Shown: piece by piece, positions 7,715 to 12,672 of the stretch
How the letters are laid out: every line of letters begins with the position of its first letter
How positions within the stretch are numbered: position 1 is the first letter of the stretch
From: a virus
Reading direction: 5' to 3' (one strand)
Virus record (IMG/VR): IMGVR_UViG_3300030331_005816
Location: 1 to 64,000 of that record
DNA: 64,000 nucleotides
Position numbers and translations under genes: made by a program
The notes under the pieces: generated by a model
The model's database searches: none
Told to the model about the DNA's origin: nothing
What the model saw: only the letters and a program-made list of their open reading frames with translations

Positions 7715-7923
7715 TGTGGAAAGTATATAAGTATGATGGAAATTACATTCAAGGTGAGCTTATAAGCAAACACACATCTGAAAATGCTGCTCTCAAGGCA
7801 GCTAAAAAGAGTATTGGTTATACTTTTTGTGAAAAAAAGAAAGTTAATAAAGAAATAAGAATTTGGCTTGATAGTGTAAATTATGCACCACTGGGTGTAA
7901 TTATAAAAAATACAAGGGGATGA
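7714..7923 (+). CDS. Hypothetical protein; stop codon lies inside tmRNA 5' end
   Basis: TAATG coupling; TGA at 7921-7923. Confidence 0.7.
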   Translation: MWKVYKYDGNYIQGELISKHTSENAALKAAKKSIGYTFCEKKKVNKEIRIWLDSVNYAPLGVIIKNTRG

Positions 7924-8257
7924 TTAGGTTTCGACAGGGCAAAAGAAAAGGAATAGTGCAAGCAGGTTAGATACGACCTTAACAGTTCAAATAATTTAGT
8001 TGCAAACAACAACTTACACTTCGACGAAACAGCTCGTTTAGCTGCTTAATCGGGAGGCTGATTAGAGCCTTCTATCCAATCTAATCAACACAACAGATAA
8101 GTTGCAAAAATCAAAACATTTATCATTAGTTTGATGGGCAATGATATCTTATTTCCATCTATCTTTGTCAGTTTATGATATAGAAACTGAATAAGCTTGT
8201 GAATGACTACAATTGGAATTGTTTTGGACGCGGGTTCGACTCCCGCCATCTCCACCA
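7916..8257 (+). ncRNA. ssrA: tmRNA
   Basis: Acceptor GGGGATG/CATCTCC with G3-U70, A discriminator, encoded CCA; TTCGAC after D-loop; T-arm GCGGG-TTCGACT-CCCGC; tag ORF 8002-8049 ANNNLHFDETARLAA*. Confidence 0.97.
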
Positions 8258-10287: not shown

Positions 10288-10363
10288 TGCCCCTTAGCTC
10301 AGTTGGTAGAGCAAGCGACTGTTAATCGCTGGGTCCGCGGTTCAAGCCCGCGAGGGGCAGCCA
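10288..10363 (+). tRNA. tRNA-Asn(GTT)
   Basis: Full cloverleaf, acceptor TGCCCCT/AGGGGCA, anticodon arm AGCGA-CTGTTAA-TCGCT, G73, CCA. Confidence 0.97.
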
Positions 10364-10382: not shown

Positions 10383-10859
10383 ATGTCTGTTTTAAAAAGA
10401 CTACAATCACTTAATTTATCAGATGATTCCATAATCACACTTATCCGTGAAGAAGGCACCGATGTTTTTGTTCACAATGAGACCGAAGTAGAAGATGCAA
10501 TTAATGAGACAACAGTAATTGAAGATTTTGCTACTTTAATTTCAAATACTGAGCTTGATGCCAGAAATCGCTGGAGCGGAAATATTATTGAGCATTTAAG
10601 AGAAAATGATTTTCTTGATGATTATGAAAGAGGTTCATTTGCATTTGAAGATTATTTAGCCGAAACATTATCAGAAAATTTTTATGATGTTGATTTAATT
10701 GAATATTCTACAGAAAAGTATGACCACAAACGAGGCTTTACAACTTTAACTGCTCAAGTAGATATTCCTTTTGCAAATTTTGCAGAGGTTAATCCTTTTG
10801 TTTCTGGATGGACTGTATCTGTTGAAACAGATAACGGTACTTTGACATTTGATGCTTAA
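10383..10859 (+). CDS. Hypothetical acidic protein
   Basis: SD AGGAG. Confidence 0.8.
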   Translation: MSVLKRLQSLNLSDDSIITLIREEGTDVFVHNETEVEDAINETTVIEDFATLISNTELDARNRWSGNIIEHLRENDFLDDYERGSFAFEDYLAETLSENFYDVDLIEYSTEKYDHKRGFTTLTAQVDIPFANFAEVNPFVSGWTVSVETDNGTLTFDA

Positions 10860-10889
10860 TTGTTCTACTTATAAAAGGAGGGTAGTGTT

Positions 10890-10928
10890 ATGGAAAAATG
10901 TGATTGCTGTAACTGTGAATGTTGCTAA
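10890..10928 (+). CDS. 12-aa Cys-rich micropeptide MEKCDCCNCECC
   Basis: SD AGGAGG 8 nt upstream; CTACTTA motif 18 nt upstream; 6 of 12 residues Cys. Confidence 0.6.
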   Translation: MEKCDCCNCECC

Positions 10929-10934
10929 ATAAAT

Positions 10935-11034
10935 GCGCTGTTCTGCTCGCTTTATAAGCAGAAGGGGGTTGCCCGACCCAAACGTAGGCAGAGGTTTCCG
11001 GTTATCCTAGTTCTAGACAGAAAACCGGTTTTTT
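10935..11034 (+). ncRNA. Candidate structured RNA (hairpin, pseudoknot, terminator-like hairpin)
   Basis: GC-rich island: TTCTGCT/AGCAGAA; GGGT/ACCC crossed by TGCC/GGCA; CCGGTT/AACCGG followed by T6. Confidence 0.5.
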
Positions 11035-11054
11035 ATATTTGACATATATACTTT

Positions 11055-11204
11055 ATGGAAGAAGTTGCAGAATTAACTATTTTAGCTATGGTTATGTTTG
11101 TAGCTGCTTTTTTTTGCTATCGTGTTTTATTGATTCCAAATGCTTCCATTAAATCGATTGAAAAAATACATGAAGTAGAAGATATGTTGTCTGGTAATGA
11201 GTAA
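11055..11204 (+). CDS. Small membrane protein (49 aa, not in ORF track)
   Basis: MEEVAELTILAMVMFVAAFFCYRVLLIP...; ATATATA motif 4 nt before ATG; ends 1 nt before tRNA-Thr. Confidence 0.6.
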   Translation: MEEVAELTILAMVMFVAAFFCYRVLLIPNASIKSIEKIHEVEDMLSGNE

Positions 11205-11205
11205 T

Positions 11206-11281
11206 GCTCGCATAGCTCAATTGGTAGAGCAACGGTTTTGTAAACCGTAGGTTGTGGGTTCAAGTCCCTCTGCGAGCACCA
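11206..11281 (+). tRNA. tRNA-Thr(TGT)
   Basis: Acceptor GCTCGCA/TGCGAGC, anticodon arm ACGGT-TTTGTAA-ACCGT, CCA; one U-U mismatch in T-stem. Confidence 0.95.
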
Positions 11282-11334: not shown

Positions 11335-12672
11335 ATGTCAAAAAAGAAAAATTATGTGTTAGATACTAGTGTTTATCTAACAGATGCAGATGCTATTTAT
11401 AAATTTGATAATCATGATATTTTTATTCCTCTTAAGGTTTTAGAAGAAGTTGATAATCACAAAAAAAGACAAGACTCTGTTGGCTCAAATGCTAGACAAT
11501 TTATTCGTACACTTGATGAACTAAGAGCCAAGGGAAGTCTAGAAAATGGTATAAGAATCGATAAAGGAAAGGGTATTATAAAAGTAATATCTTATTCAAA
11601 TTTGAATAATATAATTTTTCCACCTGACTTAGACATGAGATTACCAGATCATACAATAATTGCAACTGCCAAAACAATTCAAGCAACTTTACCAGATAGG
11701 AAAACCATATTGGTAAGTCGAGATATTAATATGCGAGTTATATGTGACTCTATTGGAATTCTCGCCGAAGATTTTGTTTCTGAAAAAGCTGTTAGAACAT
11801 CTGAAGAATTGTACAATGGATTTGTTATACATTCAGTTGATGATCAAATAGTTGATCAGTATTATGCTGGAGAAGATGTTTTTATTGAAGAAGATGATTT
11901 TAAAGAACCATGGCACCCAAATCAATATGTTATGTTAGTCTCTAATGCAAATGAGAAAAAATCTGCCCTTGCAAGATACAAAAATTCTTTTGAACCTCTT
12001 CAGCAGGTTATTAATAAGGATATTCACGATTGGAATATCAATGCTAGAAATAAAGAACAAGCATTTGCTATTGATTTACTTTTAAATCCAGACATCAAAA
12101 TTGTGTCATTAATTGGCCGTGCTGGCTCTGGAAAGACTTTGATGGCTATTGCTGCAGGATTACAGCAGACTATAGGCTTGCGAGGCGAGAACAACCATTA
12201 TGACCGAATGATAGTATCTCGACCAGTGCAGCCATTGGGCAAAGATATTGGATTTTTACCCGGCACAATGGAAGAAAAAATGCTCCCATGGCTAATGCCA
12301 ATTCAAGATAATCTTAAATTTTTAATGGGCGATAAAACATCTCTTCAAATGTATATGGAAAAAGGTAAGATTGAGTTAGAAGCACTAACATATATTAGAG
12401 GTCGTTCTATTGCGAATGCATTTATAGTTATTGACGAGGCACAGAATTTAACTAAGCACGAGGTTAAAACAATTATCACTCGTATCGGTGAGGGTACCAA
12501 AATTATCCTAACAGGAGATATTGAACAGATTGATAATGTGTATGTTAATGAAACATCCAATGGATTAGCTCATGCTATTGAGAAATTTAAAGAATACCCA
12601 ATAGCTGGTCATGTTACATTTAGAAAAGGTGAAAGATCAGAAGTTGCTACACTAGCTTCAAAAGTACTGTAA
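11335..12672 (+). CDS. phoH: PIN-PhoH ATPase (PhoH2/YlaK-like)
   Basis: N-terminal PIN (VLDTSV, SRDINMR); GRAGSGKT, GFLPG, YIRGRS, DEAQN, GDIEQID. Confidence 0.95.
   Translation: MSKKKNYVLDTSVYLTDADAIYKFDNHDIFIPLKVLEEVDNHKKRQDSVGSNARQFIRTLDELRAKGSLENGIRIDKGKGIIKVISYSNLNNIIFPPDLDMRLPDHTIIATAKTIQATLPDRKTILVSRDINMRVICDSIGILAEDFVSEKAVRTSEELYNGFVIHSVDDQIVDQYYAGEDVFIEEDDFKEPWHPNQYVMLVSNANEKKSALARYKNSFEPLQQVINKDIHDWNINARNKEQAFAIDLLLNPDIKIVSLIGRAGSGKTLMAIAAGLQQTIGLRGENNHYDRMIVSRPVQPLGKDIGFLPGTMEEKMLPWLMPIQDNLKFLMGDKTSLQMYMEKGKIELEALTYIRGRSIANAFIVIDEAQNLTKHEVKTIITRIGEGTKIILTGDIEQIDNVYVNETSNGLAHAIEKFKEYPIAGHVTFRKGERSEVATLASKVL

What the first reader, a model, noticed from the sequence alone, without database searches (positions are those of the whole stretch)
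10865..10928. 12-residue metallothionein-like micropeptide with complete expression signals
Seen: MEKCDCCNCECC, a CxCC-x-CxCC repeat, with a perfect AGGAGG at optimal spacing and the promoter motif at the canonical 18 nt. Inference: a minimal metal chelator, or a cysteine-sensing leader peptide controlling the structured RNA that starts about 10 nt downstream.
Basis: partly seen in the sequence, partly recalled or inferred. Interest (0 to 1): 0.7.

Follow-up and report, generated by a model that had tools for sequence, protein, structure and literature searches.

The report
Phage six-cysteine micropeptide gene
A 12-codon reading frame that gene finders skip is a real, conserved gene of uncultured ocean phages; half of its residues are cysteine, so it probably makes a tiny metal-binding peptide rather than a switch for the RNA next to it, though neither translation nor metal binding has been measured.

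Summary
The ORF is there as described: ATG 10890 to TAA 10928, MEKCDCCNCECC, with AGGAGG 8 nt upstream and a CTACTTATA motif at 10865.

It is not chance. The same peptide occurs in five metagenome contigs, some only 76% identical in the flanks, and differs only by synonymous Cys-codon changes. The core CDCCNCECC also occurs in a different phage type, between a tail-fibre-like gene and lysis-like genes.

At the same locus most relatives carry an 18-21-residue, mostly nine-cysteine version. There are 21 distinct 20-codon versions. All seven invariant Cys columns use both TGT and TGC, and pN/pS is 0.27.

The downstream RNA is real, with two covariation-supported pseudoknots, but it is independent of the ORF. 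Eleven distinct relatives have the RNA without the ORF. The ORF also sits before tmRNA genes or protein genes elsewhere. This rejects the cysteine-sensing leader reading.

Best reading: a mobile, self-expressed phage micro-gene for a metallothionein-like thiolate peptide. Metal binding is inferred from composition only. No Pfam, NCBIfam or PDB match was found, and none of ten 20-residue relatives looked up is in a 15-billion-protein collection.

This scan has already noted similar cysteine micro-genes in other marine phage genomes.

The parts
10865..10873 (+). Promoter-like motif CTACTTATA (cassette consensus CTAnnTAy), 2 nt before the AGGAGG (4 nt before its GGAGG core).
   Evidence: Columns C9, T10, A11, T14 and A15 are invariant in alignment A1. 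The motif is present in 22 of 31 distinct cassettes. In the window the related pattern CTA[CT]TTA occurs 14 times on the + strand and 4 times on the - strand, several times just before gene starts. The exact 9-mer is only weakly enriched: 5 found against 2.1 expected. Promoter function was not tested.
10876..10882 (+). Shine-Dalgarno sequence AGGAGGG, 7-8 nt before the ATG.
   Evidence: Read directly from the sequence. GGAGG is invariant in alignment A1.
10890..10928 (+). Micro-ORF of 12 codons plus TAA, encoding MEKCDCCNCECC.
   Evidence: The identical peptide, with synonymous changes, occurs in L211-L214. The core CDCCNCECC occurs in L210, L215 and L216.
10935..11034 (+). Adjacent but independent conserved RNA. 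Pseudoknot 1 is 10935-10937/10948-10950 crossed by 10941-10947/10957-10963. Pseudoknot 2 is 10964-10966/10977-10979 crossed by 10969-10974/10987-10991. A hairpin 10998-11003/11023-11028 is followed by T6. A possible third short helix is 10992-10994/11006-11008.
   Evidence: Alignment A2 holds 30 distinct sequences. Pair counts show helices 2 and 4 are 100% paired with compensatory changes, pair 36:51 is CG in 14 sequences and GC in 14, and pair 4:17 switches between CG and UA. No Rfam family matches.
10383..10859 (+). Upstream 158-aa conserved hypothetical gene. In relatives without the micro-ORF, the RNA follows this gene's stop codon directly.
   Evidence: No Pfam match.

Best explanation
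The 39-nt frame is a genuine, translated phage gene. Together with its strong ribosome-binding site and a conserved promoter-like motif it forms a small mobile cassette. The product, MEKCDCCNCECC, is the short six-cysteine form of a family of cysteine-packed micropeptides carried by uncultured marine phages. The commoner form at this locus has 20 residues and nine cysteines. The peptide itself is the functional unit, not the act of translating it. It most likely wraps its thiolates around metal ions as a miniature metallothionein. Six Cys fit a two-metal M(II)2S6 or a Cu(I)4S6 cluster, and nine Cys fit the M(II)3S9 cluster of metallothionein beta-domains. This would buffer or sequester Zn, Cu or Cd, or supply thiols, during infection. 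Shown here: the ORF exists, it is under purifying selection at the amino-acid level, it is mobile, and it is independent of the neighbouring RNA. Inferred only: translation in vivo, metal binding, which metal, and any benefit to the phage.
For: 1) Conservation of the 12-mer. L212/L213 (flanks 94.5% identical) and L211/L214 (flanks 76% identical, with a different promoter-SD spacer and a different RNA class) encode the same 12 residues and differ from the window by two synonymous Cys-codon changes. L215/L210 and L216 belong to a different phage type and carry MK[ED]CDCCNCECC between a tail-fibre-like gene and small lipoprotein/TM ORFs. The 30-nt core of L216 is identical to the window's.
2) The long form at the same locus. 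There are 21 distinct 20-codon versions. Seven Cys columns are invariant, and each uses both TGT and TGC. Variable sites by codon position number 12, 7 and 18. Pooled pS is 0.66 and pN is 0.18. Gly8, Ala11 and Pro12 are kept through synonymous changes.
3) The cysteine total stays at nine in nearly all 20-residue versions of all three architectures, although one Cys moves between positions 6, 11 and 3.
4) An SD is present in 26 of 31 cassettes.
5) Composition: no aromatic residue and no His in any true family member.
6) A wider class exists. The skeleton CxCCxCxCC-stop finds at least 15 further SD-led ORFs of 11-16 aa in unrelated IMG/VR phage contigs, for example MKCDCCNCTCC and MKKCDCCDCNCC.
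7) Chance is excluded.
8) The cluster stoichiometries come from established metallothionein chemistry: M3S9 beta-domain (PMC2872756); the 26-residue Neurospora Cu-thionein (PMC4755600).
Against: There is no experimental evidence of translation or of metal binding. No sequence match exists to any metallothionein family in Pfam, to NCBIfam or to the PDB, so the link rests on composition alone. The gene is dispensable: a complete 195-kb relative (G001) lacks it, and its presence is patchy on the tree of the flanking gene. No metal-related partner gene was seen nearby. The cassette often lies directly 5' of stable-RNA genes (the pseudoknot RNA, or tmRNA), and a pure peptide function does not explain that. 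If the promoter-like motif is a -10-type element, its 4-nt distance from the GGAGG core would place the transcript start at or inside the SD.
Confidence: 0.55

Rival explanations
1. Thiol peptide with a non-metallothionein role. The peptide is functional, but it acts as a redox or thiol buffer, an Fe-S or other cofactor ligand, or a metal-bridged binder or inhibitor of a host or phage protein, rather than as a metal store.
For: The selection evidence is the same as for the best explanation. In L215/L216 the gene sits in a late tail-fibre and lysis-like block. In the wider class it is tightly coupled to varied downstream genes.
Against: No partner gene is conserved across contexts. The Cys counts of six and nine match closed metal-thiolate clusters, though this is an inference.
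Confidence: 0.2
2. Cysteine-sensing leader or expression cassette for stable RNAs. Ribosomes pausing on the Cys codons, or simply the cassette's promoter, tune the amounts of the downstream pseudoknot RNA with its tRNA, or of tmRNA. The peptide would be a by-product.
For: 25 of about 28 distinct true cassettes lie 1-10 nt upstream of a stable-RNA gene: 21 before the pseudoknot RNA and 4 before tmRNA. Cys codons make up 45-50% of the ORF, as in the mycobacterial polycysteine sORF attenuators (bioRxiv 10.1101/834739). The cassette brings its own promoter-like motif.
Against: The RNA is conserved, nearly identical in sequence, in 11 distinct relatives without the ORF. The same 12-mer stands before protein genes with no such RNA. 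Non-Cys residues (Gly, Pro, Ala, the acidic positions) and the Cys total are conserved. There is no room for a terminator or antiterminator, and no extra-stable ORF+RNA fold (z = +0.84). The downstream gene has no ribosome-binding site to unmask. No Cys-metabolism genes are nearby, and no tRNA-Cys either.
Confidence: 0.12
3. Precursor of a modified peptide (RiPP) processed by a phage or host enzyme.
For: Cys-rich short peptides are common RiPP cores.
Against: The peptide has no leader region; 12-20 residues are almost all core. No maturase-like gene (radical SAM, cyclodehydratase, lanthipeptide synthetase) was found among the neighbours scanned or in the other contexts.
Confidence: 0.04
4. Non-functional remnant. 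The 12-codon frame is a decayed allele of the 20-codon gene, produced by an 18-nt in-frame deletion plus a 2-nt deletion that creates the TAA.
For: Alignment A1 shows exactly that relationship to the 20-mers at this locus. The first 7 codons are identical to those of L007.
Against: The 12-mer recurs unchanged at the protein level in genomes whose flanks are 76% identical, and in an unrelated phage type, with only synonymous differences. The SD and the motif are intact. Similar ORFs of 11-16 aa with the same Cys skeleton are widespread.
Confidence: 0.04

Closest known systems
Metallothioneins, especially the smallest fungal Cu-thioneins (Neurospora crassa, 26 residues; PMC4755600), the nine-Cys M3S9 beta-domain (PMC2872756), and fungal metallothioneins with a CCC motif (PMC13107397)
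   Same: Very high Cys content arranged as CxC and CC(C). The other residues are small and polar. There are no aromatic residues and no His. The Cys counts (6 and 9) fit known closed thiolate clusters. The peptides are gene-encoded.
   Different: At 12-20 residues they are about half the size of the smallest classical metallothionein, or smaller. They show no detectable sequence relationship to any metallothionein family. They are encoded by phages as a mobile cassette. Metal binding has not been shown.
Polycysteine leaderless short ORFs of mycobacteria (Cys-responsive attenuators; Canestrari et al., bioRxiv 10.1101/834739)
   Same: Tiny unannotated ORFs dominated by Cys codons that sit at the head of a transcript.
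   Different: Here the ORF is led by a strong SD and is not leaderless. What follows is a stable RNA or a variety of unrelated genes, not Cys-metabolic genes. There is no duplex sequestering a ribosome-binding site. Residues other than Cys are conserved.
Other phage cysteine micro-genes noted earlier in this scan (9-Cys 20-22-mers; 13-17-mers behind nrdJ; a 10-Cys ORF beside tmRNA; SAR86 8-Cys peptides). These are unpublished AI notes.
   Same: The same kind of object: SD-led, unannotated micro-ORFs of 12-33 codons, 40-55% Cys, in uncultured marine phages. One note (e1-5768695) appears to describe the 20-mer of this same locus in a relative.
   Different: The window carries the shortest, six-Cys form. 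Here I show that this short form is itself conserved and shared between two unrelated phage types.

Membership tests
Metallothionein (operational class) | Low molecular mass, Cys content about 30% or more in CxC/CC/CxxC motifs, and few or no aromatic or His residues. | tested here: met
   The 12-mer has 6 Cys and the 20-mers have 9. No F, W, Y or H occurs in any true member.
Metallothionein (operational class) | Binds several metal ions in metal-thiolate clusters. | not testable with these tools
   This needs peptide chemistry. At under 30 residues the peptide is also too short for the structure predictor.
Metallothionein (sequence families in Pfam, e.g. Metallothio, Metallothio_Pro) | A significant profile match. 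| tested here: not met
   hmmscan of five 20-mers against Pfam and NCBIfam at E up to 10 gave no family. phmmer against PDB sequences gave none. The 12-mer is below the tools' 20-aa minimum.
Polycysteine sORF attenuator (Canestrari et al.) | Leaderless sORF at the 5' end of the mRNA. | tested here: not met
   GGAGG lies 7-8 nt before the ATG in 26 of 31 cassettes.
Polycysteine sORF attenuator (Canestrari et al.) | [quoted passage not shown] | tested here: not met
   The next feature is a non-coding RNA that starts 1-10 nt after the stop. The ORF+RNA fold is not more stable than shuffles. The RNA structure is the same with and without the ORF.
Polycysteine sORF attenuator (Canestrari et al.) | Controls cysteine-metabolic genes. 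| tested here: not met
   The neighbours are tRNA-Asn, a 158-aa hypothetical gene, the pseudoknot RNA, a 49-aa TM protein gene, tRNA-Thr and PIN-PhoH. In other contexts they are tmRNA, or tail-fibre and lysis-like genes.
Conserved protein-coding gene (general test) | An excess of synonymous over non-synonymous change, with the reading frame kept across relatives. | tested here: met
   pN/pS is 0.27. Each of the 7 invariant Cys columns uses both TGT and TGC. Copies of the 12-mer differ only synonymously in the 9-residue core.

The most novel reading that the evidence does not exclude
Marine phages carry and exchange the smallest gene-encoded metallothioneins known: 12 residues with 6 Cys, and 20 residues with 9 Cys. 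They form a previously unannotated class of mobile micro-genes that lets a virus retune trace-metal (Zn, Cu, Cd) or thiol chemistry in its host late in infection. A bolder variant is that their habitual position directly 5' of tmRNA and tRNA-cluster RNAs couples cysteine or sulfur supply to the output of the phage's translation-rescue RNAs.
Probability: 0.4. Interest if true: 0.8.

Novelty: new variant of a known kind. Interest (0 to 1): 0.62.

Why it matters
Gene callers discard frames this short. None of the ten 20-residue relatives I looked up is present in a collection of about 15 billion predicted proteins. The literature searches found no paper describing phage-encoded metallothionein-like peptides.

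If the peptides bind metal, they would be well below the size of the smallest classical metallothioneins. They would also add trace-metal or thiol handling to the list of host functions that ocean viruses manipulate, in waters where Zn, Co, Fe and Cu are limiting or toxic.

The peptides are easy to test, because they can be made by chemical synthesis. Even if the function proves different, the case shows that 12-codon genes can be recognised from comparative data alone.

Tried and rejected
- **Rfam:** no family matches the downstream RNA, either at gathering thresholds over the whole window or at E up to 10 on the region in the window and in a relative.
- **Degenerate search for the full 12-mer (with the MEK start) in IMG/VR:** 0 hits. 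The shorter core pattern did find copies.
- **Protein similarity tools:** The structure predictor, the protein atlas and the representatives search all need at least 30 aa, so I did not try them.
- **Bacterial genomes:** the C-terminal 20-mer pattern gave 48 hits, of which only one is a true family member (L171, a 1.7-kb contig binned as 'Rickettsiales'); the rest are chance matches or unrelated tails. The 12-mer pattern gave 0 hits.
- **Host or cultured relative:** the flanking gene has no GenBank phage match. PIN-PhoH is at most 39% identical to anything in GenBank phages. The second phage type has no nucleotide match. One MAG hit, binned as Latescibacterota, is uninformative.
- **Second copies elsewhere in the genome:** CxCxCCC and CxCxCxC pattern scans of five records found only the known locus plus chance hits.
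- **My own earlier reading:** I first read the window allele as a freshly decayed 20-mer. I dropped that reading.
- **Link to the 49-aa membrane ORF downstream:** rejected, because that ORF is conserved whether or not the micro-ORF is present.
- **Link to a phage tRNA-Cys:** none lies within 3 kb in 26 relatives.

Full report
**1. Observation**

The window is part of a 73.7-kb IMG/VR phage record. It is 35% G+C, and nearly all its genes are on the + strand. It carries a tmRNA (7916-8257), tRNA-Asn (10288-10363) and tRNA-Thr (11206-11281). Baseplate-wedge hits point to a myovirus-type tail.

At 10890-10928 the sequence reads ATG GAA AAA TGT GAT TGC TGT AAC TGT GAA TGT TGC TAA, which is MEKCDCCNCECC. 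AGGAGG lies at 10876-10881, and CTACTTATA at 10865-10873.

In 300 dinucleotide-preserving shuffles of the window, only 2 produced any ORF of 25 aa or less with at least 5 Cys and at least 40% Cys.

**2. The ORF is conserved as a coding sequence**

I used the flanking 158-aa gene and the PIN-PhoH gene to fetch 131 related loci from IMG/VR. They come from an uncultured marine phage lineage whose complete genomes are about 190-195 kb. One of them has terminal repeats.

Many relatives carry a Cys-rich micro-ORF at the same place. Usually it has 20 codons. Three architectures occur:
- MEKCECCGCxAPCxCxCCCK
- MxNCDKCGCSCPCxCECCCK
- MNCCDKCECSTSCxCECCCS

Nearly all 20-residue versions have nine Cys, although one Cys sits at position 6, 11 or 3 depending on the type.

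Across 21 distinct 20-codon versions:
- Seven Cys columns are invariant, and every one uses both TGT and TGC.
- Variable sites number 12, 7 and 18 at codon positions 1, 2 and 3.
- Pooled pS is 0.66 against pN of 0.18.
- Gly8, Ala11 and Pro12 are kept through synonymous changes.

This is the signature of selection on a peptide.

**3. The 12-residue form is itself a stable gene**

Aligned with the 20-mers at this locus, the window allele looks like an 18-nt in-frame deletion plus a 2-nt deletion that creates the TAA. I first read it as a decaying copy.

A search of metagenome contigs for the core CDCCNCECC-stop changed that reading:
- L212 and L213 have flanks 94.5% identical to the window.
- L211 and L214 have flanks only 76% identical, with a different promoter-SD spacer and the other sequence class of the downstream RNA.
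- All four encode exactly MEKCDCCNCECC and differ from the window by two synonymous Cys-codon changes.

IMG/VR contigs L215 and L216, and Tara contig L210, belong to a different phage type. They carry MK[ED]CDCCNCECC between a tail-fibre-like gene and small lipoprotein/TM ORFs. There is no RNA element after it. The 30-nt core of L216 is identical to the window's.

A looser search for the skeleton CxCCxCxCC-stop found at least 15 further SD-led ORFs of 11-16 codons in unrelated phage contigs. Examples are MKCDCCNCTCC, MKKCDCCDCNCC and MSSCKCCRCCSCECC. They are tightly packed before varied genes.

The window's peptide is therefore a member of a wider, unannotated class of phage cysteine micropeptides.

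**4. Relation to the downstream RNA**

The RNA at 10935-11034 is real. In 30 distinct sequences (alignment A2):
- Helices 10941-10947/10957-10963 and 10969-10974/10987-10991 are paired in 100% of cells, with compensatory changes.
- Pair 10964:10979 is C-G in 14 sequences and G-C in 14.
- Pair 10936:10949 switches between C-G and U-A.

The helices cross, giving two tandem H-type pseudoknots followed by a hairpin. A third short crossing helix is compatible but shows no covariation. No Rfam family matches.

Eleven distinct relatives have this RNA directly after the stop codon of the 158-aa gene, with no micro-ORF. One complete 195-kb genome has the RNA and no such ORF anywhere.

On a tree of the flanking gene, presence of the ORF is patchy, and sister phages carry different ORF types.

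The 20-mer cassette also stands 1-5 nt before tmRNA genes in L151 and L152, and by sequence in L149 and L171. It stands before protein genes in L139/L140.

The ORF plus RNA folds no better than shuffled sequence (z = +0.84).

So the RNA is not a device controlled by this ORF. The features that define the known polycysteine attenuators are a leaderless sORF, a duplex that sequesters a ribosome-binding site, and cysteine-metabolic targets (bioRxiv 10.1101/834739). None of them is met here.

**5. Most likely mechanism**

The cassette consists of the CTAnnTAy motif, GGAGG 7-8 nt before the ATG, and the ORF. It behaves like a small mobile moron-type gene.

Its product has the composition of a metallothionein: 45-50% Cys as CxC and CC(C), small polar residues elsewhere, and no aromatic residues or His. 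From established metallothionein chemistry, nine Cys fit an M(II)3S9 beta-domain cluster (PMC2872756), and six Cys fit M(II)2S6 or Cu(I)4S6 clusters.

I therefore favour a metal-thiolate peptide, with confidence about 0.55 for the whole statement. I put about 0.9 on 'real gene selected for its peptide'.

Metal binding, the identity of the metal, the timing of expression and the benefit to the phage are all inferred.

Caveats:
- There is no sequence match to any metallothionein family.
- The gene is dispensable.
- Its frequent position 5' of stable-RNA genes is unexplained.
- If the motif acts as a -10-type element, the transcript would start at or within the SD.

**6. Comparison and novelty**

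The smallest classical metallothioneins are the fungal Cu-thioneins of about 26 residues (PMC4755600). These peptides are half that size or less, and they are phage-borne.

None of the ten 20-residue sequences looked up is in a collection of about 15 billion predicted proteins. No GenBank phage carries the locus. My literature searches found no description of phage metallothionein-like peptides.

Earlier notes of this scan report the same kind of micro-gene in other marine phage genomes. I treated them as leads. My results agree with them and add that the six-Cys 12-mer is a conserved form shared by two phage types.

I rate it a new variant of a known kind, with interest 0.62.

Noticed in passing
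window 10935-11034: A conserved RNA of about 100 nt with two covariation-supported tandem H-type pseudoknots and a 3' hairpin. No Rfam family matches. In most relatives it is followed within a few nt by a second tRNA-Asn(GUU) instead of a T-run. It always begins 0-10 nt after a stop codon, either of the 158-aa gene or of the micro-ORF. The layout (stop codon, a string of pseudoknots, then a tRNA) recalls the upstream pseudoknot domain plus tRNA-like end of tobamovirus RNAs, and the pseudoknot ring of tmRNA. Its function is unknown.
   Followed up: partly
L151:7850-8223; L152:10439-10822; also L149 and L171: In other marine phages the 20-residue cysteine micro-ORF, with the same CTAnnTAy + GGAGG head, ends 1-5 nt before the first base of a tmRNA gene. 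After RNase P cleavage its mRNA would therefore end almost at the stop codon.
   Followed up: partly
window 11055-11204: A 49-aa ORF with one hydrophobic helix (MEEVAELTILAMVMFVAAFFCYRVLL...) is conserved at 45-82% identity across the lineage, whether or not the micro-ORF is present. It is probably a real small membrane protein gene between the RNA and tRNA-Thr.
   Followed up: partly
L215:1290-2740; L216:1215-2660: In the second phage type the 12-mer gene is followed by a run of small ORFs that look like a lysis block: a lipoprotein-like ORF with a VTAC lipobox-like motif, and several single-TM proteins.
   Followed up: no
IMG/VR loci L218, L234, L253, L278, L260, L293, L294, L224, L298: Many unrelated phage contigs carry ORFs of 11-16 codons that end in CxCCxCxCC. 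The stop codon often overlaps or abuts the next gene's SD (for example TGTTGTTAGGAGA), which suggests translational coupling to varied downstream genes.
   Followed up: partly
window 11335-12672: A PIN-PhoH (PhoH2-type) fusion gene lies just downstream of the tRNA/RNA cluster and is conserved in all relatives. PIN-domain VapC toxins can target tRNAs (tRNA-Cys in M. tuberculosis, PMC13096801, abstract only). I found no evidence of any link to the Cys-rich ORF.
   Followed up: no
G000 record as a whole: CheckV completeness is listed as 5% for this 73.7-kb record, although complete relatives are about 190-195 kb. The estimate looks unreliable for this lineage.
   Followed up: no
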